NCBI GenBank assembly: GCA_019058445.1
Contig: JAHPZA010000001.1
Span: forward strand, 96,001-160,000
Length of the DNA: 64,000 nucleotides
Source of the DNA: Promethearchaeota archaeon
GTDB lineage: Archaea > Asgardarchaeota > Lokiarchaeia > Sigyniarchaeales > SOKP01
Reading direction: 5' to 3'
Numbering within the stretch: position 1 is the stretch's first letter; each line of letters starts with the position of its first letter. Under the pieces are notes generated by a model. The model saw only the letters and a program-made list of their open reading frames with translations. It was not told where the DNA came from and ran no database searches. Shown piece after piece: positions 3,968 through 64,000 of the stretch. The position numbers and the translations under genes were made by a program.

Positions 3968-3979
3968 CTTAAATTATAA

Positions 3980-5122: not shown

Positions 5123-5142
5123 ATCACACTACTAATTTATGT

Positions 5143-8023: not shown

Positions 8024-8116
8024 GAGAGATAGAAACAGATTTTGGGTAATTTCGTGCATCTAAAGCTGATTTTACTTCTTAATTAAGGATTATACTAATC
8101 CGATTGAAATAAATGA

Positions 8117-9853: not shown

Positions 9854-10028
9854 TGACTATAATCAACTGAAGATCTAAATGATCTTTTTAATTAATGTAA
9901 TTATTTATTATGATTTTAAATATTTGAATCTTAATTAAAAAAATGATTTCTTGTAGAATATCAATGATAATAGCTGAAGGATAGAAAATTAAGATTTAAA
10001 AAATGAGAAAAATAATAAGCTATTTTAT

Positions 10029-10490: not shown

Positions 10491-10648
10491 GGCTAATCAC
10501 CAATAATTTTTGTTAATAATTACATTTTGAAAGATTATTTTTTCTAATAATTATATAATAGTTTTGTTTAATAAAAATATGTTTTGATGCAAACTTACCT
10601 TATACCTTGAAAAATAAGAGTAGAAAAAAAGTATAATATATATAGGAC

Positions 10649-11269
10649 TTAACTCATCTCAGTGGTTGAATCCTTTAGTTTTAACCATAAATCGTCAAGT
10701 TCGTCTTGCATTTGAACAAATTGTTCAATTTCTTTAAGTAAAATATTTCTGGCCCTATCGAAATCTCTTTGTAAATCATTTAACTCGTTTTCAAGCATAG
10801 TAAGTTTACTTCCCTCAATCATTTTATTTTTAGTTTTTTCTATGCTTAAAGCTTTTTTAATTACGCCTGATCTCCTGCCGGCAATAGTAGTAAGAGCTTC
10901 TGCAAATAAATCTCCCCTAGTTGCTAAATCATCTTTTCGAATAGCTAGATCTTTGATTGAGTTAACAAAATCATTGCTTGCTTCAATATATTTATCATTT
11001 TTGTGGATAAAATCTTGATAGTAATTTATTTCATCATCTTTTACATTTGATTTTGATTCTCTTGCAAGGGTTTGCATTTGTTTTAACACATCTCTAAATG
11101 TTCGATTAAGCAATTGCCGGGCGATATTTAATTTCGCAATATTGTCTGCAAGTTTTTTATGAGAATCAGAAACTGTTCTCTGTAATCTTGCGACTTTTTT
11201 AAGATGGGAAGCTAAATCTTTTTCCATTTTCGCAAGATCTAATTCATCTTCATGGGTTATAATTGGCAT
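10649..11269 (-). CDS. all-helical coiled-coil protein, BAR/IMD-like size
   Basis: 206 aa of continuous amphipathic helices, no Pro after residue 2. Confidence 0.55.
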   Translation of the reverse strand: MPIITHEDELDLAKMEKDLASHLKKVARLQRTVSDSHKKLADNIAKLNIARQLLNRTFRDVLKQMQTLARESKSNVKDDEINYYQDFIHKNDKYIEASNDFVNSIKDLAIRKDDLATRGDLFAEALTTIAGRRSGVIKKALSIEKTKNKMIEGSKLTMLENELNDLQRDFDRARNILLKEIEQFVQMQDELDDLWLKLKDSTTEMS

Positions 11270-49208: not shown

Positions 49209-49457
49209 ATAACAAAATTTTATGCACTCTATCAATTTAAAAATCATTATATTTGAAATATTTGCATCATTAGTGAGAGATTTACTCTAGTTATATAACT
49301 TGAATGAAGATATAAATCCGAAAAAATAATATCAAGCAAATAACGAAAGACATTTTGAGATATTCACTAATAAAATTAATGATGAATTTAGAAAATTATT
49401 TAAGAAACTAAGACCTATGAACATAGGACAAAAGATTAAAGATGAGTAGATTTTTCA

Positions 49458-52400
49458 ATGAAACAAACAGAAAGATCATATTTTTCTTATTCAACAAAAT
49501 TAAAAATTGCTGCATATTGTAATAATACTTGCGCTTTTCCTTCATGTGGTAAAAAAGTTCTTAGTGGGAGGATTAAGGCAGAAGATCTCGAAAATGGATT
49601 TTCTAAAGGTGAATTTGCTCATATAGTTGGTGTATCTCCTCAAGGACCTAGGCGATCTCAAGATGTGTCTCTAGAGAGCATTAATGATGTTTCAAATGGG
49701 ATACTACTATGTGCAGAACACCATGCATTAATAGATGCAAATCCTAATGATTATCCTATAGAAACCTTAAGAAAATGGAAAAGGAATATTGAAGATAATT
49801 ATAAAAATCTTCTGTTTATCAGTGATTATGATTCATGGGATGTTGACATAAATAATTTAATTAAAACTTCTGAATTTATTCAATATTCCGAAGAATTAAA
49901 TAAATTTTTAAATAGTTCTGAGAATCTAATTGTGCACGTAGACGGCGAAATAGGAGTCGGGAAAAAAACTTTTGTAAAATATTGCTTTTCTCAATTACCT
50001 AAAAATCTGCAGAACGAAGTTATTATAATACAATCTAATGATTTTGATCTCTCAAATTTCTCATTGTTTAATAAAATGATTAAATCAAGATTCCTTATTT
50101 TGCTTGAGACTTCTCCAAATTATCTTAAAAAATTAGTTGATAGAATTAAACAAGTTAATCCAACTAGTTATAAAGTCATTTCGATTGGTTCGGGTGAATT
50201 AGTAACTAAAAAAATAAATGGAATTATAAAAAAATATACTTTAAACCGTTTAGATTCGAAAAGTTCAAGGAAATTAATCAGCCAATTAAGCAAAATTATT
50301 TCTCAGAATAATATAAAATATATTTTGGATTTGACAAAAGGAAATCCAGGAATTATTGCATCATTGGTCAAATATAATGAAAGAAAATATGATTTCACAG
50401 ATGATTCCATAATTTCTGAAATTTTCGAGAATTTCAATGAAAGAATTAAAAAAATGGGGATAGAGTTAATTCTAGTTAAAAAAATTATATTAGGTTTCTC
50501 AATCTTCTCTGAATTAGGATGGTATAAAGGATTATATAAGACATTATTTGAGAAAGGAAAATGGAGTTATGAATTTGAAGAGATACCTAACAAATTTTCC
50601 AAGATAATAAATGTTGATCTAGACAAGATTGACATTATTATTACAGAATTACTTGAACTAAAAGTTTTAGAAAGAAAAGGGAGATTTTTAACTTTATCTT
50701 TACCATGTTTATCAGGTCTTTTCATTCGTCAGACACAGGAGGTATTTCTCAAGTATTTTAAGCGAATTATGGATTTACAAGATCCACATTTATTACAAAA
50801 ATTTTTAAAACGATTAAAACAGTTTGCTTATGAAGAAGTCCTAATTTCATCAATTGTTAAGGAAATTCTCGATACTGGGTTATTATCAACTATAGACTGC
50901 CTAAATATTAATTTTTTTTCTACAATCCTCTTAAATCTTGCACAGCTTAATAATAAACTAGTGGCTGACCATCTTGAATTATTATTCAAGCATAAAAATC
51001 CACTAGAATTAAAAGAAATTTTAATCAATCGAAGAAACTTAATAACAGCTCTTGAGCATCTGATATGGTATCCAGAAACATTTAAGACGGGAATGGATAT
51101 TTTAATTAAACTAAGCATAGGTGAAAATGAAGACTGGGCTAATAATGCAACAGGATTAATACCTGAAAAATTTAGAGTATATTTACCTGGAACGTCAGCA
51201 AGTTTAGATTTGAGATTGAATTATTTATCTGAGTTTATTGCTAATTCAACTGAAGAGCATTTTTTTTTGATTCCAATGATTTTCAAATCTATTTTCTATC
51301 TAAATACTAGTTCTAGATTGATATACGCTGAGATACAATCATTTAAGCCAATACCAAAAGAATTCGTACCAAATCCAAAAGAATTGTCAAAGTATTTAAA
51401 TGAAACTTTTAAAATTTTTAAAAATCAATTTGAAAATGAAAAATTTGAAAAAGATGGATTAGAAATCATAAATAATAATTTGAAACTTTTTGTAGAACTA
51501 AACAAGTTTGAAGAAATTAAATCAATATGGAATAAAATAATAAGTAAAGATAGAGATTTTAAAATCAGATTAATAAATTTTTTCGAATATCGATTCAAGA
51601 ATGATACAATCTATCCAGATATTAAAGAGTATATAAACAAATTAAAAGAAGATTTTTCCCTACTTGATTCAATTAAAGAGTTTTCTTGGAAAAGCCCATT
51701 AGATTTTAAAGAAGAAGATATGAAATCCAAATCTCTTGAAGTAAAAAAAGTATTATCTAGTTTAGAAAAGGAAGAAATTCAAGAGATTCTAGAATGGTTA
51801 ATGAAAAATTCTGGTGATTTTGTCATACAAATTGGAATTTTGTTATCATTGGACAAAGATTGGATTGATCAATATGAAGATGTATTAGAAAGCTTTCTAA
51901 AATTAAAGGAAAATAGGGAATTTGATTTCTTTCTTGCGGTCTCTTATAACATTAGAATTAAGGACCAAGAAAGGTGGAGATCTATATTAAAAAAAATTGA
52001 AGCAAATGAAGGACTTTCACATGATTACTTTAGATTGTTAAGAGCAACTCCAATTCTCGATGATTGGGTTGTAAATAAAATAGTTGATTTAGCTGAACAT
52101 GATTTCCTAAATGAAAGTGATTTATATCAATTTTCATGTTTAGAAAATGTAATTGAATTGGATGAAAACTTGTTTAAAAAAATAATGAGAATCTATTATA
52201 ATAGATTTCCTAATGTAATTTCTGTTAAGCCTCAACAATGGAATGATAATTTATTCTTAATAAAACGATATATTGAAAAAAATCCCAATTTTATCAAAAG
52301 AAATGTTGAAGATCTATTAAAAATTCTTTTAAATTTTGAGTGTCATGAAGTTGAGATTGGTGATAAATTTTCAAGCCTTTGGTTAGAAATTATTCTTATA

Positions 52401-53009
52401 ATTATTAAAGAATGTCCGGGAACAATTAAGGAAATAAGAAAAAAAATAATTAGTTTAATTCCTAGCAAATATTTACCAATGGATTTTGACAAAACAACTA
52501 TTAACACTCTATTTATCAATTTTTATGAAATAGAAGCAGAAGATACCTGGGAAGATTTTAAAATTTTATTTAAATCCAAATCAATTGATTATGTAGAGTT
52601 TTATTTCAACCTCTTATTTCTAAAATTAGTGCCTATCAATAAAATTTTAGAATTATGTGAGGAAAATGTAGAAAAAAATCCTTTAATTCTTGTTAAAATT
52701 GTAGGAGAGGATATCCAATCTCAAAAAGGTCAAGATCTTGTTCGTGAAATTTGGTATAACTACTCGAATATTAGCAATCTTTCTTTTGAAATATATTCTA
52801 ATTATACTTCTGGTGTCAAAATATTCTCACCTGGTGAAAGCGCTAAAATTCAAGAATTTCAATTAAAAAGACTTGAGGAGTGGCTTGAAAAAGAAAAAAA
52901 AATGGAAAAAACTAGAGAAAAAATGACGATATTAATAAATGAATTGAAAAGATTAATCTCGAGGGATGAAATACACGCAAAACAGAATGATGAAGAAACA
53001 AAAATTTAG
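49458..53009 (+). CDS. HNH nuclease + STAND-like NTPase + helical repeat protein (putative defence)
   Basis: CAFPSC..AHI..GPR..NGILLCAEHH..ID HNH; GEIGVGKK P-loop; GNP motif; long alpha-helical C-terminus. Confidence 0.75.
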   Translation: MKQTERSYFSYSTKLKIAAYCNNTCAFPSCGKKVLSGRIKAEDLENGFSKGEFAHIVGVSPQGPRRSQDVSLESINDVSNGILLCAEHHALIDANPNDYPIETLRKWKRNIEDNYKNLLFISDYDSWDVDINNLIKTSEFIQYSEELNKFLNSSENLIVHVDGEIGVGKKTFVKYCFSQLPKNLQNEVIIIQSNDFDLSNFSLFNKMIKSRFLILLETSPNYLKKLVDRIKQVNPTSYKVISIGSGELVTKKINGIIKKYTLNRLDSKSSRKLISQLSKIISQNNIKYILDLTKGNPGIIASLVKYNERKYDFTDDSIISEIFENFNERIKKMGIELILVKKIILGFSIFSELGWYKGLYKTLFEKGKWSYEFEEIPNKFSKIINVDLDKIDIIITELLELKVLERKGRFLTLSLPCLSGLFIRQTQEVFLKYFKRIMDLQDPHLLQKFLKRLKQFAYEEVLISSIVKEILDTGLLSTIDCLNINFFSTILLNLAQLNNKLVADHLELLFKHKNPLELKEILINRRNLITALEHLIWYPETFKTGMDILIKLSIGENEDWANNATGLIPEKFRVYLPGTSASLDLRLNYLSEFIANSTEEHFFLIPMIFKSIFYLNTSSRLIYAEIQSFKPIPKEFVPNPKELSKYLNETFKIFKNQFENEKFEKDGLEIINNNLKLFVELNKFEEIKSIWNKIISKDRDFKIRLINFFEYRFKNDTIYPDIKEYINKLKEDFSLLDSIKEFSWKSPLDFKEEDMKSKSLEVKKVLSSLEKEEIQEILEWLMKNSGDFVIQIGILLSLDKDWIDQYEDVLESFLKLKENREFDFFLAVSYNIRIKDQERWRSILKKIEANEGLSHDYFRLLRATPILDDWVVNKIVDLAEHDFLNESDLYQFSCLENVIELDENLFKKIMRIYYNRFPNVISVKPQQWNDNLFLIKRYIEKNPNFIKRNVEDLLKILLNFECHEVEIGDKFSSLWLEIILIIIKECPGTIKEIRKKIISLIPSKYLPMDFDKTTINTLFINFYEIEAEDTWEDFKILFKSKSIDYVEFYFNLLFLKLVPINKILELCEENVEKNPLILVKIVGEDIQSQKGQDLVREIWYNYSNISNLSFEIYSNYTSGVKIFSPGESAKIQEFQLKRLEEWLEKEKKMEKTREKMTILINELKRLISRDEIHAKQNDEETKI

Positions 53010-54261
53010 CGAATTGATTCCAAAATTCGATAATTGTTATATTCCTTTTAGATCAAACCTTGAAATTAAGATAGATCAAATTCATTTTAGAAAAAAAGGA
53101 CAAGATGAATGGTCATATTTTTCTAAATTATTCAGTTATGAAGATGATTATAATCATATAGTTGAAATTAATAACGAAATTGATGAAAATCTAATAATTA
53201 TCTACTATAAATCACTTGATCCTATAAAGTTTTCGTCAGAATTTGTCCAACTTCGAGTTATTATAAATAATGAGATTTATAGATGTATGTGCTCAATAGA
53301 ATGGATAAAAATTGAAGATGATTTACTTCCAAAGATCGTAATTAATTCAAATTTAGGATTTAAAAAGGAAAGAATTACCTGCCTATGTCTAAAATTAAAC
53401 GACAATTGTTTGAAATTCCTTAAACAATTTAACCAATTAATTGAAACTCAAAATATTACAGATTTGACTGATATTCGTGGAATTAATATTAAAAATTATG
53501 ATATCGCAATTGTAAATATCAAATTCTTAGATGATATAAATTTATACTTGAGATTTCTAAAGAATATTGGACAAATATACATCTCTGATGACATTGGAAA
53601 ATTATCAGAAAATTGTCTCAATATCAACAAACACAATTCATCTTATTCCTTTCATTATCGTATATCTGAATTTTTAAAAATAAAATGTTTAAACATTGAG
53701 AAAAATGATAAAGTCGATTTTTGGGAACAAAATAAAGATGAATCCGAGAGATTTTGGCAAAAATACTTACAAAAGCATACTGATATCTTTTCCTCTGCTC
53801 TAAACTATACTATGGAATTTATCTGTGATGAAGGATCTGTAAGAGGGCAAGATATATATGGAAAGGGAGAAAAAAGAATAGATTTTCTATATAAAGGAAA
53901 TGATAATAATGCTATTCTAATCGAAATAAAAGGACCAAAAACTCAATTAATTATGAATATGGAATATCGTGAAGGAATATATCCTCCCACAACTGATTTA
54001 TCAGCTTCAGTCCTTCAGGTAATGGATTATAAGAAAATACTAATCGAAAATTATAATGAAATTAAAAAAAGATGTGATTGTGATGGTTTAAAGACAGACA
54101 TCATTAAATGTTATGTTATAATTGGAAACTTAGAAGATTTAAAAGAGGAACAAGAAAAAAGTTTTTCTTATTTTAAAGAAGTCGTAAACCCATATGTGGA
54201 GATAATCACCTTTGATGATCTTTTTGATAAATATAAAAAAAGCTATTTAATGGTCATTTAA
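52966..54261 (+). CDS. sduA: Shedu (DUF4263) anti-phage nuclease with unknown N-terminal domain
   Basis: ESERFWQKYL, RIDFL, LIEIKGP.T.L..YR..DLSASVLQV.DYK, VIIG, VEIITFDDL. Confidence 0.82.
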   Translation: MKYTQNRMMKKQKFSELIPKFDNCYIPFRSNLEIKIDQIHFRKKGQDEWSYFSKLFSYEDDYNHIVEINNEIDENLIIIYYKSLDPIKFSSEFVQLRVIINNEIYRCMCSIEWIKIEDDLLPKIVINSNLGFKKERITCLCLKLNDNCLKFLKQFNQLIETQNITDLTDIRGINIKNYDIAIVNIKFLDDINLYLRFLKNIGQIYISDDIGKLSENCLNINKHNSSYSFHYRISEFLKIKCLNIEKNDKVDFWEQNKDESERFWQKYLQKHTDIFSSALNYTMEFICDEGSVRGQDIYGKGEKRIDFLYKGNDNNAILIEIKGPKTQLIMNMEYREGIYPPTTDLSASVLQVMDYKKILIENYNEIKKRCDCDGLKTDIIKCYVIIGNLEDLKEEQEKSFSYFKEVVNPYVEIITFDDLFDKYKKSYLMVI

Positions 54262-54323
54262 TTACAAATTATCTTTTTGGATTATGGAAAATATATAAAA
54301 ATGAGTTTGGAATACTTAAAAAT

Positions 54324-56222
54324 TTATTTATTGTCTTTTATGAAAGTTTGAAGATCTATAAAGAAATTGAAATTATCGCTTGTAATATTAGTTTTAAGTG
54401 TTTCTACTTCTTTATAAGTAACTGTCTCTGCTTCAGTATTATTTCTTTTCTTACAAACAAATTTCCCATCTTCCTGTTCTACAAGAATTGGTTCCCTTGT
54501 TTGCTTAATAGCAACAATCAAAATGATTTTTTCTATATCGAAATCATCTATCAATTTTATCTCTTTACATTTAATAAAATCCTTTTTTGGTTCTGTAAAT
54601 TTCCTTAATACTTTCTTAATTTGTTTAATTTTTTCCTCTAATCCATCAATTCCGACAATCTTTTTTGGATCATCATCTGTAATACCAATAATTAATAAGC
54701 CACCATCATAATTGGCAAAACTTGTTACTTGATTGCAGAATTTAATTTTAGCCCTCTTTTTTTCTGATTTGCTGGATTTTTCCCAAAAGTCAAGTGTTTG
54801 CTTAAAGTCCCATAAATCATTTTCAATGCGGTTAGGTTCTATAGCTTTTTTTATAAAAAGAATTAAAGCTTCTTCATTATATAAAAAGGTTTGTTGCAGT
54901 CTATATTTGTTAATATCTAAATCTAATTCTTCATAAATTTCTTCAAAATCTTCTTCAAGAATTTTGTTCACAATGGATTTAGTGTTTTCTTTTTGAATTA
55001 AATATACAGAGCATTCCTCTTCATTTTCGTATAAAAATTCTCTAGAATGCGTAGTTATAAAAATCTGATTAGATTTTGATTCTTGAAGGAATTTATCCCT
55101 TAACTTAATTTCTAATCCAGGATGTAAATGAAGCCCAGGTTCTTCTATACATAGTATATTATCTTGCCCAATTTCCATGATATAAGCAATAAAGTGTGCT
55201 ATGTTAAGTATACCAGCACCCATATTGTCCAAATTCAATTCTATGTTTAAATCATTTTCTTTTAAAATTAATATAGTATAATCATTTTCGATCACTTCTT
55301 GCCTTAGTATATCAATTTCAGGAATAAATTCTAATAATTGCTTATTAAGTTTTGAGTTCCAATCATGTTCATTGGTAACCAATTTCTTATATATTATAGT
55401 AACTAAATTACTTCCTACCGGATCCAGACTTAAGCGAGTGGCCCCTGAGGTCTCAGCCCTTGGATTAAATCTACGTTTATCTGGAATAATATGGATATTT
55501 TCAAAAAATTTAATTAATTCTTTAGCTATAAATGGAATAGGGGGATAATTTTCAAGATTCAAATGTTCTTCTAAAATTTGTTTTATATATCGAATTCCAC
55601 CAGTTCTTATATTTGCAAAATAATTTTTTAGAAATACTCTATCAATTGAAACATTTTGTTTTTGAATAGCTTTAGGATTATATACTGAGTTTTGAAAATT
55701 ATCATTATCAAGTCTTTTAAAATGGAACAAATCTTGATAGTTATTATCCATATGTAAAATTTGAATTCTTTCAATATATAAAGCCTTTCCAATATCGTAC
55801 TTTTTCAAAAAAATTTTAATTTTATTGAAATATTCATTTGATTTAAGCCAGTCTAAAGCGACTTTTGTGTCATTCCAATTAAATTCTTGAAATTTTGGAT
55901 CATTTTTCCTTGTATAATCAAAAACTCTATTTAAAAAATTTCGAGTGATAAGTTCCAATATAATTTTATTTCTAAACTCTGATGTTAGGGAAAAAATTAG
56001 ATTAAGTTCTAATGGTAGTGTTTCGTCTCCATCATAATATTGTTCTCTATTTACTTTTCTTTCTGAATAAGAATCTTGGAGTATCTTAAATATTTTAAAT
56101 AAATTTGATTTACCTGAACTATTTTTTCCTATTATAACATTGTAATCTTTAAAATCCTCAAATTTAGCATCTTTATAACTCAAGAAATTTTTGATTTCTA
56201 TTCCTGAAAGCTTAATATTCAA
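54324..56222 (-). CDS. OLD/PrrC-type ABC ATPase fused to C-terminal Schlafen (AlbA_2) domain
   Basis: GKNSSGKSN, MGAG, IEEPGLHLHP, ITTHS; WDFK..SFANYDGGLLIIGITDD..IVGI. Confidence 0.82.
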   Translation of the reverse strand: MNIKLSGIEIKNFLSYKDAKFEDFKDYNVIIGKNSSGKSNLFKIFKILQDSYSERKVNREQYYDGDETLPLELNLIFSLTSEFRNKIILELITRNFLNRVFDYTRKNDPKFQEFNWNDTKVALDWLKSNEYFNKIKIFLKKYDIGKALYIERIQILHMDNNYQDLFHFKRLDNDNFQNSVYNPKAIQKQNVSIDRVFLKNYFANIRTGGIRYIKQILEEHLNLENYPPIPFIAKELIKFFENIHIIPDKRRFNPRAETSGATRLSLDPVGSNLVTIIYKKLVTNEHDWNSKLNKQLLEFIPEIDILRQEVIENDYTILILKENDLNIELNLDNMGAGILNIAHFIAYIMEIGQDNILCIEEPGLHLHPGLEIKLRDKFLQESKSNQIFITTHSREFLYENEEECSVYLIQKENTKSIVNKILEEDFEEIYEELDLDINKYRLQQTFLYNEEALILFIKKAIEPNRIENDLWDFKQTLDFWEKSSKSEKKRAKIKFCNQVTSFANYDGGLLIIGITDDDPKKIVGIDGLEEKIKQIKKVLRKFTEPKKDFIKCKEIKLIDDFDIEKIILIVAIKQTREPILVEQEDGKFVCKKRNNTEAETVTYKEVETLKTNITSDNFNFFIDLQTFIKDNK

Positions 56223-56648
56223 ATCTCCTTTCCCCCTTAATAATGATTTAAGACTCTTCTGATATTCTTTAGCAAAATATAATATTTATTCTCTTTGGTA
56301 AATTAGAAATTATAGAATAATAATTTAATAATATTAATTAAAAAGTAAAAATAAAGAGAGTCTAATTATTTTTTACAATTCATTAAACACAATTTTACAA
56401 ATTTTGAAGCAGATCTTCATTCTTTTAAATCTTAATATAATTCTAAATTATTGAATTCAATATTTTCGTATATACTAGAACTATAATTTCAATTTTTATC
56501 AATACTCATGTATAGTAATCCTTAAGGTTAGTATTTAATTATGAATATAAATATAAAGCTATCAAATAGTTATAGATTACTAGTATATATTTAAATTCAC
56601 TTAATTACAAATAATTTTATATATTAATACATAAAAAAAGATTTTTTA

Positions 56649-58190
56649 ATGATAAAAATGAACGAGGCAAGCGTTATTGTACCAAAAAGTGAAATTAGTG
56701 ACGATTTCTTAATTAAGAATTACTGTAAGCTCATTAAAAAAGGGGAGATTGAATTTCTAGAGAAAATGGATAGTTTTGACATATATGATAAGAATTATGA
56801 AGAATTAAAGGATGAGTCTAACTATATAAAAATTGATACTAAGAATCTTGTTAATATTTTAAATGATCTCACTATAGAAGATAAAAAAGAAGAAGAAAAA
56901 GTAAAGATTCTGAAAAAGAAAAAAATAATATTTCAGAAACTATGGCCGAATTTTGTAAGGAGTGCTATTAAATATCTAAGAATAAAAGATACTCGAGATA
57001 AAGGTACCTTTAAATTTGATTTTGGAGTCAACAATTTAACAAAATATTTTGAAGAATTCTCAAAATTTGAAGAAATTCTTTATGGAATTGACGAATACTA
57101 TCGAGATCATTCCCTACATGTTTTTAGAGTGTATCTTTTAGGAGTATATTTAGTAAGAAAATTTTTTAAAGATTATGATCAATTGAAGATTAAAAATAAA
57201 CCTTCTATAATCGGTAAAATCTTTTCTGATGAAAAAGAAGCGATTTGGTGCGTTATAGCATTATGTCATGATTTAGGATATCCATTACAGAAATTAGATG
57301 AATTAAATAAAAAACTTGTTAAAATACTCGAATTTTTTGGTACTTCAAATTTTAATCCTTTAAGATTTAGCTTACCTCTTGAAGGAACAATCTTAGACAA
57401 ATTTATTTTAAAATTAATTTCGTCAAGAATCAATGACAACTTATTGATTCAACATCAACCTAAATTTTATGCAAAATACTCTAAGGCTTATGAAAAATTG
57501 AGCCATGGAATAATGTCTTGTATCTTATTAATGAAAAATTTAGTATATTTTAAAGAAACAGATTATGAACCTGATTTCCAAAAAGGTTTTAAATATATTA
57601 AAGAGCCTTCTACAAATAGCAACGATTTTGATGAAAGAACTTTAGAGGATGCAAGACAATATGTAATTAGAAGAGAAATACTACGATCAATTGCTTCCCA
57701 TGATAACGAAGATATTTATCATATAGAAATGAATAATTTTCCCTTTTTATTGATAATGTGTGATGAAATCCAGGAATGGAGCCGACCTGCTTCAAAAATA
57801 AGACTACTATATGCCTTAGATGAAAAAAATAGAGAGATAATTAATATCAATGCTTTTAATGAAAATATAATAGATATCTTAATAAATTTAAATTTTGATG
57901 AAAATGATTTATTAAATTATGTTGCAAAGAAATATATGAAATTTATTCGATTATTGAGAAGTGCTGTAGATTCAGATAAACGGAAATTTAATTTTATAAT
58001 GTCGATACAAAATAGGGAAGGCATAAAATACCAGTTTATTTATGAAAGTCCTAATGAATTCTATACTGATGAAGAAAAGAAAAAAATGGAAATCTCGTAT
58101 GAAGAACCAAAATGTATAAAATTTATAAATGAAAAACCAATAGAAGATTTCTCATTAAGGAATATTATTGATTTAATAAATAAAAAATGA
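56649..58190 (+). CDS. HD-domain metal-dependent phosphohydrolase
   Basis: RDHSLH, CHDLGYP, HG..S, SHD, LIMCDEIQEW.R. Confidence 0.78.
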   Translation: MIKMNEASVIVPKSEISDDFLIKNYCKLIKKGEIEFLEKMDSFDIYDKNYEELKDESNYIKIDTKNLVNILNDLTIEDKKEEEKVKILKKKKIIFQKLWPNFVRSAIKYLRIKDTRDKGTFKFDFGVNNLTKYFEEFSKFEEILYGIDEYYRDHSLHVFRVYLLGVYLVRKFFKDYDQLKIKNKPSIIGKIFSDEKEAIWCVIALCHDLGYPLQKLDELNKKLVKILEFFGTSNFNPLRFSLPLEGTILDKFILKLISSRINDNLLIQHQPKFYAKYSKAYEKLSHGIMSCILLMKNLVYFKETDYEPDFQKGFKYIKEPSTNSNDFDERTLEDARQYVIRREILRSIASHDNEDIYHIEMNNFPFLLIMCDEIQEWSRPASKIRLLYALDEKNREIININAFNENIIDILINLNFDENDLLNYVAKKYMKFIRLLRSAVDSDKRKFNFIMSIQNREGIKYQFIYESPNEFYTDEEKKKMEISYEEPKCIKFINEKPIEDFSLRNIIDLINKK

Positions 58191-58750
58191 CAGTAAATGA
58201 TTATACTGATATAAAAACTATTGAAATTAAGAAAAGGGATTTAATATTTTCTAAAAAAACTCGTTTGTGGTGTAGATTACCATATCCAAATCATCCTTAT
58301 GGATGTCCAAATTATAATAAAAATCCATTATGTCCCCCTTTTGCCGATTACATGGATTATATTAAAAAAAAATATTCTCATTTTTATTTAATTTATGCTA
58401 TTTTTAAATTAAAAAGTCAAAGAGAAAGAATGCTTTCAATCCATCCAAATTGGTCAATAAAAAAAGCTAATTGTTTGTTATATTGGCAGGGTTCTGTAAA
58501 AAAAGTCTTAAAAAACTATATTCAAAGGATTATACTAAAAAATAAAAATAGAAAAACCTATATTTTAGCATGTGGTTCTGGATTTAAATTTAGTAGTATT
58601 CATCAAAATAAAGTCTATAGTATGGAAGCTGTAGGAATAAATGTATTAAAAACTTTAGATAATGTGGGAATAGAATACGAACTTAAACCTAAGAATAAAG
58701 TATTACTAGTTACACTATTATGTTCTCAAGAGTACCTTTTATTTTTTTAA
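58187..58750 (+). CDS. DUF2284-like Cys-rich metal-binding protein
   Basis: C..GCPNY..CPP, SMEAVGINV..T. Confidence 0.75.
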   Translation: MTVNDYTDIKTIEIKKRDLIFSKKTRLWCRLPYPNHPYGCPNYNKNPLCPPFADYMDYIKKKYSHFYLIYAIFKLKSQRERMLSIHPNWSIKKANCLLYWQGSVKKVLKNYIQRIILKNKNRKTYILACGSGFKFSSIHQNKVYSMEAVGINVLKTLDNVGIEYELKPKNKVLLVTLLCSQEYLLFF

Positions 58751-59771
58751 ATTCTTCAGGTATATAATCTTTAGTTAAATCTATTTGTTTAATGTTATTG
58801 CATACTAATTTTTGAATTGGACAAATTTCATTACATATTTTTCTTTCTAAACAATATCCACATTTTAGATTTTCTTTAAAATGCTGTAATTCTATATCTA
58901 ATAACCTATTAGAAATAACTTTTCGAAGCGAATTTTTATCATTCAGTTTCACGAAGCAATTTGAAATATTTTTAAAAGCAGTACAAGGAAATAATTTAAG
59001 ATCAGATGTAATCATAAATTTATTTTTTCCAGCTTCACACTTAAAACAAGAATTACTAAGGTTAGAAAATGCCGATCCTATTTCGACTTTAGAGGAAGGA
59101 TAATTTAATTTCACATTATTTAAAATGATAGCTAGATCTTCTTTGCTAAATACTAATTTCTCATGATTTTTTAAAGCCCTACCATGTAATATAAGGCGAA
59201 GTATCTTGACATGTTTAATATTTAGCTCATTTATTAAATATTCTATTGTATCTTCAAGGTATTTAATATTTAAACAATTAGGGATGATATGAACTTCAGT
59301 ATTGATATTTAAATCTATACATGATTTAATTGAAGTTATAGTATTTTCAAAACCAAATGTGGTTTTTGTTAATTTAGCAAAATTTTCTTTATCAATGGTT
59401 TGAAAATTATATCTTATTGTCAAATTAGGATGATTTTTATATCTCATTAAGATATTTTTAGGAATAGGCAAATACTCCCTATCTTTATAAATACATCCAC
59501 AAGAGTAAATTTCCAGCAAAAAATCACAATTTAGAATATAATCAATAAATTCTATAATGTTTGGATGAAGAAATGGTTCTCCTCCTGATAATTGGATAAT
59601 ATCAAGACCAAGTTTTTTAGCATCTTGAATAAGTTCGATAAATTTCTTTTTTTCTATATATTTCTTCTTATAGATGGTTGAATCACTAGAACAAAAAATA
59701 CAATTAAAAGGACATTTGTTAGTTATTTCAATCAACAATTCTTTTTTCTTTTTCAATTTTGCTTTCCTCAA
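58710..59771 (-). CDS. radical SAM/SPASM-domain protein
   Basis: EITNKCPFNCIFC, SGGEPFLHP, CEAG..PC..CGYC..ICNEICP. Confidence 0.88.
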   Translation of the reverse strand: MRKAKLKKKKELLIEITNKCPFNCIFCSSDSTIYKKKYIEKKKFIELIQDAKKLGLDIIQLSGGEPFLHPNIIEFIDYILNCDFLLEIYSCGCIYKDREYLPIPKNILMRYKNHPNLTIRYNFQTIDKENFAKLTKTTFGFENTITSIKSCIDLNINTEVHIIPNCLNIKYLEDTIEYLINELNIKHVKILRLILHGRALKNHEKLVFSKEDLAIILNNVKLNYPSSKVEIGSAFSNLSNSCFKCEAGKNKFMITSDLKLFPCTAFKNISNCFVKLNDKNSLRKVISNRLLDIELQHFKENLKCGYCLERKICNEICPIQKLVCNNIKQIDLTKDYIPEEFKKIKGTLENIIV

Positions 59772-60065
59772 CGATTCAATTCTAATATTGACTTAGATAC
59801 TTTTAATCTTTTTCTATATAAAAAAATAAAAATATCTTGGTTTTTTCTCATCATCTCCTAAACTTGTTTAACTCTATATTATGCTTAAATATTAGAAATA
59901 TTTTAAATCTTTTAGCTTTTCTCATTTAAAATATATTTCTTAAAAATATTTAAAATTATTGGCAATGAAATTATTCGAAATTTAATAAAATCTCATTTAA
60001 TTAATAAGATTTTGATTTCAATTTAACTTATAATAAAAAAATAGATTTAACCGACAAATTTATAT

Positions 60066-60093
60066 TATTCTCTTTTCTTAAGAATTGAGAATA
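60066..60093. promoter_or_regulatory. 28-bp imperfect palindrome, candidate operator
   Basis: TATTCTC-TT-TTCTT|AAGAA-TT-GAGAATA just upstream of the wHTH gene. Confidence 0.45.
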
Positions 60094-60127
60094 TTTAAAA
60101 ATGCTTGTTTATAATTTAATTATGTAG

Positions 60128-60454
60128 ATGATTGCCCTTGAAAAAGAGATAATTATTATAAATTTTTTAAATGAGAAAGCTATAAATTTATTATATATTC
60201 TAGCTAAAAAATATCCAATAACTAGCGTTAATTTGAGGAATAAGGTTATTAAAAATGAAATAATGTCTATAAGTTCTTACTATAGGTATCTGGATTTCCT
60301 TTTGAAACATAAACTGATAAAAAAAGAAAAATATAGAAAGAAGACAGGGGGTTATATTTATAATATAAGTAATTTTGGTAAGTATTTCCTAGAATTAATT
60401 TTAAAATCAAACATTCCTTTTTATAATAATCTAAATCATGATCTAAACTCATAA
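60128..60454 (+). CDS. winged-helix DNA-binding protein
   Basis: SSYYRYLDFLLKHKLIKK..GYIYNISNFGK. Confidence 0.7.
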   Translation: MIALEKEIIIINFLNEKAINLLYILAKKYPITSVNLRNKVIKNEIMSISSYYRYLDFLLKHKLIKKEKYRKKTGGYIYNISNFGKYFLELILKSNIPFYNNLNHDLNS

Positions 60455-60499
60455 ACTTATAGAATAGCGGATTTTTATTTAAAAAATTTAAAGTGTTTA

Positions 60500-60940
60500 A
60501 TTCCTCAATCTTCTGATAATTAGGCTTACTATACAAATTCAAGTTATTTCAGATATGATGCTGAGATTTTACATTCAGAAAGGATTAAAAAACAAGGAGA
60601 TTACCATTCTATTATAAGTGGTTGAGTAATTATTCATAAAAGCTTAGGCGAGCAAAAATCAGACATACAAGGATTATGAGAATTAACTAAAAATATTTGC
60701 CATAATAATAACACAGCATATTATGCCTACACTACAGATTTCACTTATCACCCTTATTGAAGAAGAATCTTTCGAGGGGACAGTTTTACCTTTTAAGAAT
60801 GTGGTGCTCAAGATGCCAGAATTTACTCCAGAATTACTGGCTATTATAATGAAGTAAATAAATATAATGAGGGAAATAGAGCAGGATGGGAAGCCTGTAA
60901 AAGAGATTATATCAACGTATTACAGAGATTAAAAAAATAA
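60500..60940 (+). pseudogene. nrdD: decayed copy of nrdD 3' end (Zn-ribbon + glycyl-radical domain)
   Basis: One frame reads IPQSSDN*AYYTNSSYFRYDAE..ERIKKQGDYH..YSRITGYY..W with 5 internal stops; colinear with 48783-49208. Confidence 0.92.
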
Positions 60941-60959: not shown

Positions 60960-63164
60960 CTAATTTTTAATATAGATTTGTCCTATTCCTGATGTAAAGA
61001 TTTCATAGAATGGAACTGTTAAATCATAAATATTATTATTTTCATTATTAAATTCTATAGATTTTACTTTAGTGAAAGTATTTTTAGCAAATTTCATCCA
61101 TAACTTCTCAACAACAGGAGTATTATATTTCTTTTTTATAAGAAAACTCAATGTATCTAATAATTTTCCTTCAGATATATTCATTGTACTATTCTTTTGA
61201 GCACATCTCGCTGCGATATATGGAATTTTTCCTTTTTCAGATAACATTCTAAGAGATATAGCATAATTCTCTTTTAATTCTACATTCATTTTTTTCATCC
61301 ATGGATTTAAATCGATGACTGGTTCTATATCCCTCCCAAAATGTCCAATTTCTGGAATAGATGGAATAAACTTCCTTAATATAGATAGATTTCTTTTTCC
61401 TTTTATTTCTAAATGATAAGCATTATACCAACTAGGATGTTCTACATTATCAAATTCTCGTTTCCTAATATAAGATGAAATCCCTAAGCGTTTTAATAAA
61501 AAACTCAAACCAAAAACTAATTTGCGTGAAGATGTGTAAAAACTCACTAAAACATCTCTTCGTGGTGAGCCTTCACGTGTATATACTACTTCAGATCCGT
61601 CTCCTTCTAAATAAGCAGCGATAAAACCTTTCACACATTCAATGGGAGCATTATATAGAAATGAAGGAATTTCCTTAAACGGTGCTTTTTCAAGTTTTAA
61701 TCCTAATCCCGTTGAAAACATAGATTTAATTAGAATGGAATTACTATTGACGCTATATACAGTGTTATAATCCGCTTTATCATGTGTAGCAATATAAGGT
61801 GTATATCCAAAATTCCTTTCTATAAGAAATGCTACTTTTTCCATCTCAGTTTTATTATTTCCACAAGTGAACGTAATATGTTTCATAGAACCTTCGGAGC
61901 AGTAATGCCCTAAGATATATCCAACCTCGAAATTTTTCTCAACAAATCTAAAGGCTTTTGTTAATGCATTTTTAACATACTCAATGCCTTTCTCCACAAT
62001 AATTTCTCCACAATTACTAAAGTCTAAGGGGGAATCGTCTTCATTAACATCGATGACTCGAGGCATTAGAATTGGAGTTCCTTCTTTAACGTTTTCTGCT
62101 GTAATTTGGATTATATTAAGATTTTCATCAACAGAAAGTAGCTTATGTTGTTTTGATAACGATAATATCCCATGCTTCAATGTTAAATTTAATGAAAAAT
62201 CTCTATACTTTTTTTTAATTCCTTCAATGGGGATTTTTTTTAATTCAAAATTCTCGTCCAATCCAAAGATATAAGAGTTTTTATAATTTTCTATTTCTTT
62301 AATTTCTATTAGATTATATGAATTTGTATTTAAATCGAACAATAGAACGAGCTCGTTTTGCTGCATTTTAGAAAAAAGATTCTCTTCAATGGGGGTTCGT
62401 TCCTTCTCATACACATCATTAATTCGCTGAAGTTTATCTTCTTGGATAATTTCTTCATCAAAGAATACTTGATTATTTATTTCTTTTTCTTTAATATTCA
62501 CACTCGTTTCTAATCCAAAAAATTGGATTAAATCTTTTCGAATTACTTTTTCGAGGTTAAATAATCCCTCCTCAGTATCAATTTGACTCATTATTTTAAA
62601 TATTATTTCTATTATCCAACACAAGTAGACAAAAAAAGCCTTGCGGTATTTCTTGTTTTTTTTAATTTTCCTTTGGTATATTTTTAGTTCTGAGAGGAAT
62701 CCACTGTAGTTAGCATTTTCGAGATATTTCAAAATATTTAATATTGGTTTTTTAGTTATAATTGGAGTCAAATGAGCTTCAATTCTTTTAATTAGTTCAA
62801 TGGTTAGTTCCATTTGTGAAATCGGCGTGTTTACTTCTCTCTCAAATTTTTTTAATTTAACATAACTCATTCGAGCAATAAATAGAAGATAAGTATCCTT
62901 AAATCGTTGTGAAAATTCTGGATCGTAAATAATAAGCTCTAAGGCACTATTCAACTTATCATTATTATTTTTTTTATAAATTAATTGAACTTTATCAATA
63001 GTTTCAATCGAATAATTCTTAAAGTCAATTTTTTTGCCACATTCTGAGCAGAATATGAATTTTAAATCAATATTAGCAATATTTAAAATTGTATTCACTG
63101 TAATTAACATGCCACATTCTGGACAGTAAATATGTGTTTGTTTAAGTTTGTCTTTGCTTTTCAT
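60960..63164 (-). CDS. Zn-ribbon/helical N-domain fused to terminal intein-derived Hint + LAGLIDADG endonuclease
   Basis: CPEC..CSEC; block B SKQH, block C LGHYCSEGS, block E FIAAYLEGDG, block H, block F IYDLTV, ends IYIKN-stop. Confidence 0.85.
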   Translation of the reverse strand: MKSKDKLKQTHIYCPECGMLITVNTILNIANIDLKFIFCSECGKKIDFKNYSIETIDKVQLIYKKNNNDKLNSALELIIYDPEFSQRFKDTYLLFIARMSYVKLKKFEREVNTPISQMELTIELIKRIEAHLTPIITKKPILNILKYLENANYSGFLSELKIYQRKIKKNKKYRKAFFVYLCWIIEIIFKIMSQIDTEEGLFNLEKVIRKDLIQFFGLETSVNIKEKEINNQVFFDEEIIQEDKLQRINDVYEKERTPIEENLFSKMQQNELVLLFDLNTNSYNLIEIKEIENYKNSYIFGLDENFELKKIPIEGIKKKYRDFSLNLTLKHGILSLSKQHKLLSVDENLNIIQITAENVKEGTPILMPRVIDVNEDDSPLDFSNCGEIIVEKGIEYVKNALTKAFRFVEKNFEVGYILGHYCSEGSMKHITFTCGNNKTEMEKVAFLIERNFGYTPYIATHDKADYNTVYSVNSNSILIKSMFSTGLGLKLEKAPFKEIPSFLYNAPIECVKGFIAAYLEGDGSEVVYTREGSPRRDVLVSFYTSSRKLVFGLSFLLKRLGISSYIRKREFDNVEHPSWYNAYHLEIKGKRNLSILRKFIPSIPEIGHFGRDIEPVIDLNPWMKKMNVELKENYAISLRMLSEKGKIPYIAARCAQKNSTMNISEGKLLDTLSFLIKKKYNTPVVEKLWMKFAKNTFTKVKSIEFNNENNNIYDLTVPFYEIFTSGIGQIYIKN

Positions 63165-63339: not shown

Positions 63340-64000
63340 ATGCGAATTGGCGGAATAATTGATATTTCTACAAAAGATATTCCAAATAAAGCATGCATGG
63401 TTATCTTTACTAATGGGTGTAATTTTAATTGCGAATTTTGTCATAACAAACATTTATTACAAAATAATCGCGGTAAAATTATAAAAGTAGAAGAGTTAAT
63501 GAAACTAATAAATAATAACCTACTAGTTAATAGTTTAAGTATCACAGGGGGCGAACCGACGCTTCAGGAGGATTTAGTAGAGTTATGTAGAGAAATCACT
63601 AAGTTAGGGAAATATCTAAGTATAGATACTAACGGTTCTAGACCTGAAATCATTCAAAAAGTTATTCCATATATTAATAGAATTGCTTTAGATATAAAAG
63701 CACCGTTAAAGCAACATCAATTAGAGAGAGTTGCTAGAAAAAGTATAGACCCTACGTTAATTACTCAGACATTTCTTATGCTAAATACCAGTAAGACTAT
63801 TGATTTTGAAATTAGGACCACTTATGCTGAAAACTTATTGACACCAGGGGATATTCATGAGATAATTTTCTTTCTTAAGGAGCATAATTTTAGAGGCAAT
63901 TATGTCTTACAACAATATAACTATTCTGAGGGGGTGGGTAAAGAGTTTAGAAATAAGTTTCATAAGCCGTCGCATCTTTCTTTAGTCAATATTCTTGGTT
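63340..64000 (+). CDS. nrdG: anaerobic RNR activating protein (partial, runs off window)
   Basis: MRIGGIIDISTKD..FTNGCNFNCEFCHN, ITGGEPT, DTNG, DIKAP, EIRTT. Confidence 0.9.
   Translation, partial: MRIGGIIDISTKDIPNKACMVIFTNGCNFNCEFCHNKHLLQNNRGKIIKVEELMKLINNNLLVNSLSITGGEPTLQEDLVELCREITKLGKYLSIDTNGSRPEIIQKVIPYINRIALDIKAPLKQHQLERVARKSIDPTLITQTFLMLNTSKTIDFEIRTTYAENLLTPGDIHEIIFFLKEHNFRGNYVLQQYNYSEGVGKEFRNKFHKPSHLSLVNILG

What the first reader, a model, noticed from the sequence alone, without database searches (positions are those of the whole stretch)
60960..63164. Non-splicing, HO-like domesticated intein endonuclease between the nrdD remnant and nrdG
Seen: a complete intein architecture (Hint-N, two LAGLIDADG motifs with acidic catalytic residues intact, Hint-C) forms the C-terminus of the protein. 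The terminal Asn is followed directly by a stop, so there is no C-extein or +1 nucleophile. The penultimate His is Lys and block A looks degenerate (FSKMQQNELVLL). It is fused to an N-terminal Zn ribbon plus a helical domain. Established: RNR genes are intein/HEG hotspots, and yeast HO is an intein-derived, non-splicing nuclease with a Zn domain. Inference: a free-standing nuclease that may cut naive nrdD alleles and drive homing or gene conversion of the neighbouring island, which would explain mobility without an integrase. A repurposed DNA-binding regulator is the alternative.
Basis: partly seen in the sequence, partly recalled or inferred. Interest (0 to 1): 0.8.

Follow-up and report, generated by a model that had tools for sequence, protein, structure and literature searches.

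The report
Escaped NrdD intein turned homing nuclease
This Asgard archaeon carries, just behind its ribonucleotide reductase gene nrdD, a DNA-cutting gene that descends from a self-splicing intein of nrdD, can no longer splice, and most likely behaves like the yeast "WHO" selfish elements, which until now had no counterpart in published work on prokaryotes.

Summary
ORF 60960-63164 (-) encodes 734 aa in four parts: a Zn ribbon, a helical domain of unknown fold, a disordered linker, and a complete Hint + double-LAGLIDADG intein fold that ends ...IYIKN-stop.

- **Splicing residues are lost.** Position 1 is Lys, the penultimate His is Lys, and there is no C-extein. Both LAGLIDADG acids (E424, D522) are kept.
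- **Its closest splicing relative is an NrdD intein.** P0025 is 44% identical (E 1e-110) and sits at QPAE|SSSGRF, which is codon 558 of the window's nrdD.
- **The nuclease domain tracks nrdD.** In every related contig long enough to show it, the domain lies convergent to the nrdD 3' end, whatever its N-terminus.
- **Stranded nrdD tails respect the old intein site.** None of twelve tails starts upstream of it. Four start 0-53 nt after it, and one lies within 2 nt.
- **nrdD evolves as a mosaic.** Close alleles diverge abruptly from that site on, and the six codons after it are hypervariable.

This matches the yeast WHO elements at FBA1 (PMC7282813). It is selfish rather than domesticated. Cleavage is inferred, not shown. 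The scan reached the same reading on another genome (e1-5604805).

The parts
60960..63164 (-). Gene for the 734-aa free-standing, non-splicing intein-derived endonuclease (P0001)
   Evidence: Open frame. Pfam Intein_splicing + LAGLIDADG_3. Full-length orthologues of 69-71% identity.
63024..63134 (-). N-terminal Zn ribbon (residues 11-47; C14, C17, C39, C42)
   Evidence: The cysteines are nearly invariant in 33 homologues. The model shows two beta hairpins. Only weak zinc-finger profile matches were found.
62517..62972 (-). Helical domain of unknown family (residues 65-216)
   Evidence: pLDDT is about 85-95. No convincing fold match: Foldseek found nothing and VIA Z was 6.7 or less. The domain is shared with proteins that carry HNH, LAGLIDADG or other C-terminal modules.
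62370..62516 (-). Disordered linker (residues 217-265)
   Evidence: pLDDT is below 50. dN/dS is 0.6-2.3, so it evolves roughly neutrally.
60963..62369 (-). Intein-like domain (residues 266-734): Hint-N, double-LAGLIDADG nuclease, helical DNA-recognition region, Hint-C
   Evidence: It is 44% identical to the in-frame NrdD intein of P0025.
61887..61922 (-). LAGLIDADG motif 1 (GYILGHYCSEGS; catalytic E424)
   Evidence: E-G is invariant in all 14 aligned family members.
61593..61628 (-). LAGLIDADG motif 2 (GFIAAYLEGDGS; catalytic D522)
   Evidence: G-D is kept in all 13 free-standing copies in the alignment. It is lost (GKKS) only in the splicing NrdD intein P0025.
60499..60940 (+). Stranded former 3' end of nrdD (pseudogene, codons about 575-716; weak homology back to about 60461, codon 562)
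   Evidence: Direct repeat with 48782-49081 at 74% identity. DNA alignment. tblastn read-through shows in-frame stops. It ends 20 nt from the nuclease gene, as the intact nrdD does in L001.
48718..48741 (+). Predicted target: the ancestral intein insertion point in the live nrdD (between E557 and S558, nt 48728|48729)
   Evidence: P0025 carries its intein exactly here. The L002 junction starts within 2 nt of it. Mismatches between close alleles spike here. The next six codons are hypervariable. Cleavage is not shown.
47058..49208 (+). Live nrdD; its last 427 nt or more (from 48782) duplicate the remnant region and arrived with the island
   Evidence: Pfam NRDD E 7e-143. Repeat D1.
49209..60498 (.). 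11.3-kb cargo island between the live nrdD and its old tail (HNH-NTPase, Shedu, ATPase-Schlafen, HD, DUF2284, radical SAM, wHTH); no integrase found
Evidence: Pfam scan.
63340..64000 (+). nrdG (activase), divergent from the nuclease gene; runs off the window
   Evidence: Radical_SAM + Fer4_12. The same neighbour is seen in L001 and L002.

Best explanation
The gene encodes a free-standing LAGLIDADG homing endonuclease that arose when an intein of nrdD left its host gene.

It kept the whole intein fold and both catalytic acids but lost every splicing residue. It was fused behind a Zn-ribbon/helical module and now lives as its own gene, convergent to the 3' end of nrdD.

Inferred mechanism:
1. 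The nuclease still recognises the old intein homing site in nrdD (around codon 558, QPAE|SSSGRF) in sensitive alleles.
2. It makes a double-strand break there.
3. The break is repaired from another nrdD copy. This replaces the 3' end of nrdD with the donor's version and copies whatever lies behind it, whether the nuclease gene or passenger genes.
4. The recipient's old 3' end is pushed downstream as a dead remnant.

This is the working principle of the yeast WHO elements at FBA1.

In this window the ancestral arrangement was nrdD - nuclease - nrdG, as in L001. A later event of the same type most likely brought in a new nrdD tail plus the 11.3-kb island and stranded the old tail next to the nuclease gene.

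Shown: the architecture, the residue losses and retentions, descent from the NrdD intein lineage, synteny, the remnants and their boundaries, and the mosaic evolution of nrdD.

Inferred: cleavage, its site, and its causal role in the island insertion.
For: **Fold and residues**
- Intein + LAGLIDADG by Pfam and by fold.
- Position 1 is K/E/T/I/D in all free-standing copies and Ser only in the in-frame intein.
- The block B His and the terminal HN are not conserved.
- The E-G and G-D catalytic motifs are kept in all free-standing copies down to 33% identity.

**Ancestry**
- P0025 is NrdD with a canonical intein: Ser1, TNSH, HN, +1 Ser. It matches residues 267-734 at E 1e-110.
- In the tree it is basal to a monophyletic family.

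**Synteny**
- The nuclease domain lies convergent and 0-100 nt from the nrdD stop in L001, L006, L007, L008, L010, L018, L019, L020, L031 and L033.
- It lies a little further away in L002, L014 and L017.
- This holds with at least four unrelated N-termini.

**Mobility**
- The domain was found in only 10 of 151 genomes of the class.
- Same-genus genome G076 has the empty site: nrdD, about 40 nt, then nrdG.
- G031 keeps only a 124-aa fragment of the gene.

**Remnants**
- Twelve stranded nrdD tails were found, and none reaches upstream of codon 558.
- L002 starts within 2 nt of the insertion point, joined illegitimately to a truncated nrdG.
- G056 starts at +15 nt, L009 at +41 nt, and the window at +53 nt (weakly at +18 nt).

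**Host-gene mosaic**
- L001 and L002 nrdD are 95.7% identical 5' of the site and 86.2% identical 3' of it.
- There are 17 mismatches within the 34 nt around the site.
- Pairs L010/L006 and L007/L019 show the same pattern.

**Site hypervariability**
- The six codons after the site vary within an otherwise invariant 25-residue stretch.
- Rare variants (QAANRL, HTARRL, SASNRL, SMSNRL) occur only in nuclease-adjacent alleles.

**Selection**
- dN/dS is 0.20-0.27 in the nuclease domain and about 1 in the linker.

**Published precedent**
- WHO elements (PMC7282813; 10.64898/2026.08.13.744650).
Against: - No biochemical or genetic test of cleavage exists.
- The window's own live nrdD carries the common SSSGRF site. 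It is therefore unclear which alleles are sensitive and how the resident copy is protected.
- The window's robust remnant boundary is 53 nt from the site, not at it.
- The exact-site junction (L002) comes from a single metagenome contig.
- Several genomes (for example G056) have nrdD tails and cargo but no copy of this nuclease. The nuclease is therefore either lost afterwards, acts in trans, or is not required.
- A bias towards short 3' remnants is expected from any mechanism that must keep nrdD functional.
- Homing needs two nrdD alleles in one cell, and no DNA-exchange route is known for these archaea.
Confidence: 0.68

Rival explanations
1. The nuclease is real, or was recently active, but is a bystander to the island. 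The nrdD 3' end is a general integrase-free insertion hotspot driven by another mechanism, such as replication or transcription breaks or an unrecognised recombinase. The nuclease gene is just one more passenger that landed there.
For: - G056 has two nested nrdD tails with SUKH/DUF6891 and DUF285 cargo and no intein-like gene.
- Isolated tails occur on other contigs in G041, G097, G082 and G005.
- In the window the island, not the nuclease gene, lies next to the live nrdD.
- The window's clear homology starts 53 nt after the site.
Against: - It does not explain why the closest splicing relative sits in nrdD at the very point that no remnant crosses.
- It does not explain why the nuclease domain alone, with four different N-termini, always abuts nrdD.
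- It does not explain why close alleles diverge most within 34 nt of that point.
Confidence: 0.17
2. The protein is a domesticated DNA-binding protein, for example a regulator of nrdD/nrdG. It would use the former endonuclease surface to bind but not cut, as WhiA does.
For: - It lies between nrdD and nrdG and shares a 175-nt divergent intergenic region with nrdG.
- It carries an added Zn ribbon and helical domain.
- It is under purifying selection.
Against: - Both catalytic acids are kept in every free-standing copy.
- It is present in only 10 of 151 genomes of the class, while nrdD was found in 110 of 121 genomes of the family.
- A same-genus genome lacks it.
- The N-terminus is not conserved across nrdD-linked copies.
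- In L006-L008 it is not next to nrdG.
Confidence: 0.07
3. It is an inactive relic: a dead element on its way to decay, with no present function.
For: - A truncated copy exists in G031.
- The homing-element life cycle predicts decay after fixation.
- dN/dS of about 0.25 is relaxed for a housekeeping gene.
Against: - The 734-codon frame is intact here and in L001, L002 and L014 at 67-73% identity.
- dN/dS is well below 1 in both folded domains, while the linker is about 1.
- The catalytic residues are intact.
Confidence: 0.08

Closest known systems
WHO ('weird HO') homing elements of Torulaspora/Lachancea at FBA1 (Coughlan et al. 2020, PMC7282813; Osborne et al. 2026 preprint 10.64898/2026.08.13.744650)
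   Same: - An intein-like LAGLIDADG protein without exteins and without the C-terminal splicing motif, fused to a Zn-binding domain.
- It is its own gene, downstream of an essential host gene, and can be in the opposite orientation.
- Dead fragments of the host gene's 3' end are interspersed.
- The host gene's 5' and 3' parts have different histories, with the break at the cut site.
- The target site is hypervariable.
- Family branches have moved to other loci (here leuS and nadC).
   Different: - Independent origin: the nearest relatives are archaeal, and the ancestor is an NrdD intein still found in frame at the presumed target site, whereas FBA1 has no intein.
- The Zn module is an N-terminal Zn ribbon plus helical domain, not a C-terminal GATA-like finger, and it is replaced by other N-termini in sister copies.
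- The host is a prokaryote without meiosis.
- Large passenger islands ride along.
- Cleavage is shown for WHO6 but not here.
Yeast HO endonuclease
   Same: A non-splicing intein-derived LAGLIDADG nuclease with an added Zn-binding domain and no exteins.
   Different: HO is domesticated: it is fixed, tightly regulated, cuts MAT, and is not part of the repair template. The archaeal gene is patchy, sits next to its presumed target and shows signs of mobility. 'HO-like' therefore describes the protein, not the biology.
Canonical NrdD intein at QPAE|S (P0025, contig JBHLML010000130.1)
   Same: 44% identical over the whole 468-residue intein; same fold and same lineage. It defines the site where remnants begin.
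   Different: P0025 is in frame in nrdD and keeps Ser1, TxxH, HN and +1 Ser, but it has lost the second LAGLIDADG Asp (GKKS). The window's protein is the mirror image: nuclease residues kept, splicing residues lost.
Mobile ORFs of fungal mitochondria (atp6/cox C-terminal duplications) and free-standing phage homing endonucleases using 'intronless homing' (T4 seg/mob genes, including mobE between nrdA and nrdB).
   Same: An endonuclease gene beside, not inside, its target gene. It moves together with a replacement copy of the flanking gene segment.
   Different: Those nucleases are GIY-YIG or HNH proteins with no intein ancestry.

Membership tests
Functional (splicing) intein | Hint fold interrupted by a homing-endonuclease domain | tested here: met
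   Pfam PF14890 spans residues 280-724 around PF14528. The model matches TliVMA, PI-TkoII, PI-PfuI and PI-SceI.
Functional (splicing) intein | Cys/Ser/Thr nucleophile at intein position 1 | tested here: not met
   Lys266 aligns with Ser1 of P0025. Other free-standing copies have K, E, I, D, and T in one.
Functional (splicing) intein | Block B TxxH | tested here: inconclusive
   P0001 has SKQH, so the His is kept. Across the family the His is replaced by Q, D or N.
Functional (splicing) intein | C-terminal His-Asn followed by a C-extein that starts with Cys/Ser/Thr | tested here: not met
   The protein ends IYIKN followed by TAG. Homologues end at different residues with no common extein.
Functional (splicing) intein | In-frame insertion in a conserved host protein | tested here: not met
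   The N-terminal part is a swappable module also found with HNH and other nucleases, and other nrdD-linked copies have unrelated N-termini.
LAGLIDADG homing endonuclease (two-motif, monomeric) | Two LAGLIDADG helices, each ending in an acidic residue + Gly | tested here: met
   E424-G425 and D522-G523. Both are invariant or nearly invariant in the family.
LAGLIDADG homing endonuclease (two-motif, monomeric) | Site-specific double-strand cleavage with 4-nt 3' overhangs | not testable with these tools
   Only indirect evidence is available: a junction within 2 nt of the ancestral insertion point in L002.
WHO-type homing element (by way of working) | Extein-less intein-like nuclease gene lying downstream of an essential host gene | tested here: met
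   Convergent to nrdD in 13 or more independent contigs.
WHO-type homing element (by way of working) | Duplicated, decaying 3' fragments of the host gene in the cluster | tested here: met
   Seen in the window at 60499-60940, and in L002, L007/8/20, L009 (two) and G056 (two).
WHO-type homing element (by way of working) | Host gene is a chimera: low divergence 5' and high divergence 3' of the cut site | tested here: met
   L001/L002 are 95.7% versus 86.2% identical, with the step at nt 1630-1680 of 2151. L010/L006 are 96.9% versus 91.5%.
WHO-type homing element (by way of working) | Allele-specific cleavage of the host gene | not testable with these tools
   Needs expression and cleavage assays.
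WHO/HO protein family (by descent) | Common ancestry with yeast WHO/HO/VDE | tested here: not met
   The nearest relatives in 1.8 billion representatives are archaeal. The nearest canonical intein is in NrdD. PI-SceI appears only as a fold match, below the archaeal VMA and Pol inteins. This points to convergent origin.

The most novel reading that the evidence does not exclude
Asgard archaea harbour a whole class of WHO-like homing elements: intein-derived nucleases that escaped from their host genes (nrdD, and a sister clade at leuS). Together with a swappable Zn-ribbon/helical module shared with HNH and LAGLIDADG nucleases, they act as an integrase-free engine that repeatedly rewrites the 3' ends of essential genes and loads defence islands behind them. 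That would imply frequent allele-to-allele DNA exchange in these archaea, and it would preserve, with intermediates still extant, the intein-to-free-standing transition that in yeast led to HO.
Probability: 0.35. Interest if true: 0.85.

Novelty: new variant of a known kind. Interest (0 to 1): 0.74.

Why it matters
[quoted passage not shown] The authors stated then that WHO and HO were the only intein-zinc finger fusions known in any organism (PMC7282813). None of my literature searches found an archaeal or bacterial counterpart. An independent archaeal version would show the strategy is a convergent solution rather than a yeast oddity.
- **Keeps the ancestor in view.** The ancestral in-frame intein still exists at the presumed target site. 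The step from intein to free-standing element can therefore be studied directly.
- **Offers a mechanism for integrase-free islands.** It gives a concrete, testable explanation for gene islands, including defence islands, that sit behind essential genes without an integrase.
- **Bears on DNA exchange in Asgard archaea.** Homing needs two alleles in one cell, so it bears on whether and how these archaea exchange DNA.
- **Supplies new enzymes.** The family adds natural LAGLIDADG scaffolds with diverging specificities.

Tried and rejected
- **Read-through or frameshift past the terminal Asn.** None of the three frames downstream of 60960 continues the protein. The opposite strand there encodes the nrdD tail.
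- **Single-protein scan of genome contigs with residues 266-734.** It found nothing. The alignment-based scans were needed.
- **Identity of the N-terminal domain.**
  - Pfam gave only sub-threshold Zn-ribbon hits.
  - Foldseek against the PDB gave nothing at E 0.001 or better.
  - VIA-align wide gave a best Z of 6.7 on helical bundles, within noise.
  - A PDB sequence profile matched only zinc fingers over residues 9-54.
  - PADLOC gave no hit, and PHROGs gave one weak hit of unknown function.
  - I considered a TFIIB-like reading (Zn ribbon + helical repeats), but no search supported it.
- **The N-terminal domain as the locus-specific part.** Rejected. Proteins that share it but carry other nucleases (P0017, P0020, P0022) are not at nrdD.
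- **Window versus same-genus G076 nrdD.** Divergence is uniform (85.8% 5', 82.6% 3'). It is too high to reveal a mosaic, so the donor or breakpoint of the window's own event could not be mapped.
- **Remnant versus all available nrdD tails.** No close donor or relative was found; identities were 62-74%.
Full report
**1. What is there**

The minus-strand ORF 60960-63164 is complete and encodes 734 residues.

- Pfam places an Intein_splicing match across residues 280-724, wrapped around a LAGLIDADG_3 match at 509-598.
- A model of residues 260-734, built on 14 homologues, has mean pLDDT 84.9.
- That model is most similar to full-length intein homing endonucleases: TliVMA 7qss (E 1e-24), PI-TkoII, PI-PfuI and PI-SceI.
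- The first 47 residues hold four nearly invariant cysteines in two hairpins, forming a Zn ribbon.
- Residues 65-216 form a confident helical domain that matches no solved fold or family.
- Residues 219-262 are a disordered linker.
- The protein ends ...GIGQIYIKN followed by a stop.
- Nothing downstream continues it in any frame. The other strand there carries a dead nrdD tail.

**2. It cannot splice, but the nuclease is kept**

I aligned 13 free-standing relatives (33-73% identical) with one canonical intein.

| Feature | Canonical intein (P0025) | P0001 | Other free-standing copies |
|---|---|---|---|
| Intein position 1 | Ser | Lys266 | Lys, Glu, Ile, Asp, Thr |
| Block B His | present (TNSH) | present (SKQH) | replaced by Gln, Asp or Asn in many |
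| C-terminal end | HN, then +1 Ser | KN, then stop | KN, VK, VN, KKIN, TF and others, then stop or a few unrelated residues |
| LAGLIDADG Glu-Gly (motif 1) | kept | kept (E424) | invariant |
| LAGLIDADG Gly-Asp (motif 2) | lost (GKKS) | kept (D522) | kept in every copy |

Splicing and cutting have thus been partitioned in opposite ways in the two forms.

Codon analysis against the orthologues in L001, L002 and L014 gives these dN/dS values:
- nuclease domain: 0.20-0.27;
- N-terminal domain: 0.27-0.44 (one pair at 0.72);
- linker: about 1.

**3. Ancestry**

I searched 1.8 billion representative proteins. After the free-standing relatives, the best hit with exteins is P0025 (363 bits, 44% identity over 468 residues). 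The next canonical inteins score 75 bits or less.

P0025 is an NrdD of 1162 residues. Its intein has:
- Ser1;
- TNSH in block B;
- His-Asn at the end;
- Ser at +1;
- an insertion point at ...LWQQPAE|STSGRFAKLDL...

In the window's NrdD this point lies between E557 and S558, at nt 48728|48729.

In a maximum-likelihood tree with six other inteins as outgroup, the family is monophyletic (support 91/86). The NrdD intein branches at its base.

**4. What tracks nrdD is the nuclease domain**

Full-length orthologues:
- In L001 the order is nrdG, the nuclease gene, then an intact nrdD. The two stops are 20 nt apart. This is the window's locus without the island.

Copies with unrelated N-termini also abut the nrdD stop in convergent orientation:
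- P0015 (885 aa), P0010 (787 aa), P0005, and the short form in L009.

Proteins that share the Zn-ribbon/helical module but carry other C-terminal nucleases lie at unrelated loci:
- two phage-type HNH domains (P0019/20; one such gene is also in this genome);
- a plain LAGLIDADG domain (P0022);
- other C-terminal ends (P0017, P0032, P0035).

A sister clade of the nuclease domain (33-36% identical) sits beside leuS in five loci from four genomes and two metagenome contigs, and beside nadC in one.

**5. Signs of mobility**

- With the family profile at E 1e-30 or better, the domain is found in 10 of 151 genomes of the class. All ten are in one family, spread over three genera.
- nrdD itself is found in 110 of 121 genomes of that family.
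- A same-genus genome (G076) has nrdD and nrdG about 40 nt apart with nothing between them.
- G031 keeps only the last 124 codons of the nuclease gene next to nrdD.

**6. Stranded nrdD tails and where they begin**

The window has one tail, at 60499-60940. It is 74% identical to 48782-49208 and is riddled with stops. Weak in-frame similarity reaches back to codon 562.

Across the loci and genomes searched I found twelve such tails. Approximate start codons are 558, 562-575, 563, 572, 592, 619, 621, 630, 630, 646, 646-658 and 654. None reaches upstream of the intein insertion point, although the queries would have shown it.

At the DNA level four tails start close to that point:

| Locus | Start relative to the insertion point |
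|---|---|
| L002 | +0 to +2 nt |
| G056 | +15 nt |
| L009 | +41 nt |
| window | +53 nt (weakly +18 nt) |

The L002 case is the most telling. A truncated nrdG (its first 429 nt) is joined without homology to an nrdD tail that begins ...C AGT TCT GGT CGT TTC GCT. That is the first codon after the insertion point. This is what a captured DNA end made by a LAGLIDADG cut at the homing site would look like. It rests on one metagenome contig.

Other arrangements also fit serial replacement:
- L007/L008/L020 have the tail on the far side of a [213-aa gene + nuclease] cassette.
- L009 and G056 each have two nested tails, which fits serial events.

**7. nrdD evolves as a chimera**

Nucleotide identity 5' (codons 258-557) versus 3' (codons 576-713) of the site:

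| Pair | 5' identity | 3' identity |
|---|---|---|
| L001 / L002 | 95.7% | 86.2% |
| L010 / L006 | 96.9% | 91.5% |
| L007 / L019 | 85.1% | 79.5% |
| L002 / L014 | 70.8% | 83.1% (reversed) |

For L001/L002 the mismatches rise sharply at nt 1630-1680 of the gene. Seventeen mismatches fall in the 34 nt around nt 1672.

In 40 distinct alleles, the six residues after the site vary inside an otherwise invariant YSLWEQPxE......A[KR]LDLKHFP block. The main types are SSSGRF and ST(S/A)NRL. The rare types QAANRL, QAASRL, HTARRL, SASNRL and SMSNRL occur only in alleles that have the nuclease gene next to them. These alleles are related to one another, so this is not a statistical test.

**8. Interpretation**

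All of this reproduces, feature by feature, the WHO elements of Torulaspora and Lachancea. WHO elements have these published properties (PMC7282813, 10.64898/2026.08.13.744650):
- they are extein-less intein-like LAGLIDADG proteins with a Zn-binding domain;
- they are encoded downstream of the essential gene FBA1;
- they cut sensitive FBA1 alleles;
- at each homing event they replace the FBA1 3' end and strand the old one;
- they make FBA1 a chimera and drive an arms race at the cut site.

The archaeal version differs in four ways:
- it arose independently, and its ancestral intein is still present in frame at the presumed target site;
- its Zn module is N-terminal and exchangeable;
- its host is a prokaryote;
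- large passenger islands are carried.

The most likely history of the window is as follows:
1. The locus began as nrdD - nuclease - nrdG.
2. A break occurred at or near codon 558.
3. The upstream end invaded a foreign nrdD and copied its tail plus the 11.3-kb island.
4. The newly copied DNA joined illegitimately to the resected resident tail.

I give the overall reading 0.68. The specific claim that this nuclease caused this island's insertion I put at about 0.45.

**9. What weakens it**

- No cleavage data exist.
- The resident live allele carries the common site sequence.
- Cargo-only replacements occur in genomes without the nuclease (G056).
- Any mechanism that must preserve nrdD favours short 3' duplications.
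- How two alleles meet in these archaea is unknown.

The main rival is that the nuclease is a passenger at a hotspot created by something else.

**10. Relation to earlier notes of this scan**

After reaching this reading I found two relevant notes.
- Another agent had proposed the same WHO-like interpretation for an nrdD locus in a different Loki-type genome (e1-5604805).
- The island of this window has its own report (e1-5497922).

They agree with the results here but are not independent evidence.

Noticed in passing
G000:C6:924903-925607 (own genome, outside the window): A second gene carries the same Zn-ribbon/helical N-terminal module (49% identical over residues 2-234) in a 713-aa frame. 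It is the same size as P0019/P0020, which carry two phage-type HNH_3 domains. The module seems to be a general front end for free-standing nucleases in these archaea.
   Followed up: partly
L023 4138-6402, L026 4057-6321, L036, L037 (convergent to the leuS 3' end); L038, L039 (upstream of the leuS 5' end); L012 9458-11380 (between nadC and a hydrolase): A sister clade of the intein-like nuclease (33-36% identical, also extein-less) is linked to the leucyl-tRNA synthetase gene rather than nrdD. This suggests a target switch. I did not look for leuS fragments or a LeuRS intein relative.
   Followed up: partly
L040 (G031:C98) 1501-1872: Only the last 124 codons of the nuclease gene (57% identical) remain next to an intact nrdD whose site reads QAAGRL. 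This looks like a decayed element.
   Followed up: no
G072, G113, G136, G064 (about 1186-1190 aa), G138, G145, G075 (1214-1228 aa), G109, G040 (1658-1687 aa) nrdD frames: Several family members have nrdD open frames 470-970 residues longer than normal, while codons 501-713 are uninterrupted. They probably carry one or two other in-frame inteins at sites upstream of codon 501. These were not detected by the family profile at E 1e-30.
   Followed up: no
L072 (G056:C6) 2221-10819: An intact nrdD is followed by two nested dead nrdD tails. Between them lie SUKH/DUF6891 (immunity-protein-like) and DUF285 repeat genes, with no recognisable nuclease gene.
   Followed up: partly
L001 930-3134 versus L002 4291-6495: The nuclease gene itself is a mosaic between these two close genomes. 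Identity is 95-99% over the N-terminal module. It falls to 66-71% in two patches of the intein-like domain (residues about 430-497 and 664-734). This could reflect recombination or diversifying selection on DNA-contact regions.
   Followed up: partly
L004 3925-4869 and 7189-8727; L005 1160-2506: The two N-module proteins with other nuclease ends (P0017, P0020) both lie next to Arf/Roc-type small GTPase genes. This may be chance, given how many such genes Asgard genomes have.
   Followed up: no
window 49458-60454: The island holds an HNH-NTPase giant protein, a Shedu SduA_C nuclease, an AAA_15 ATPase fused to Schlafen/AlbA_2, an unassigned 513-aa protein, DUF2284, a radical SAM enzyme and a small wHTH protein. 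No integrase was detected by Pfam.
   Followed up: partly
L030 254-3742: The intein-bearing nrdD (P0025) has no free-standing nuclease gene behind it. A ResIII/DEAD helicase gene lies there instead. This fits the two forms being alternatives.
   Followed up: no
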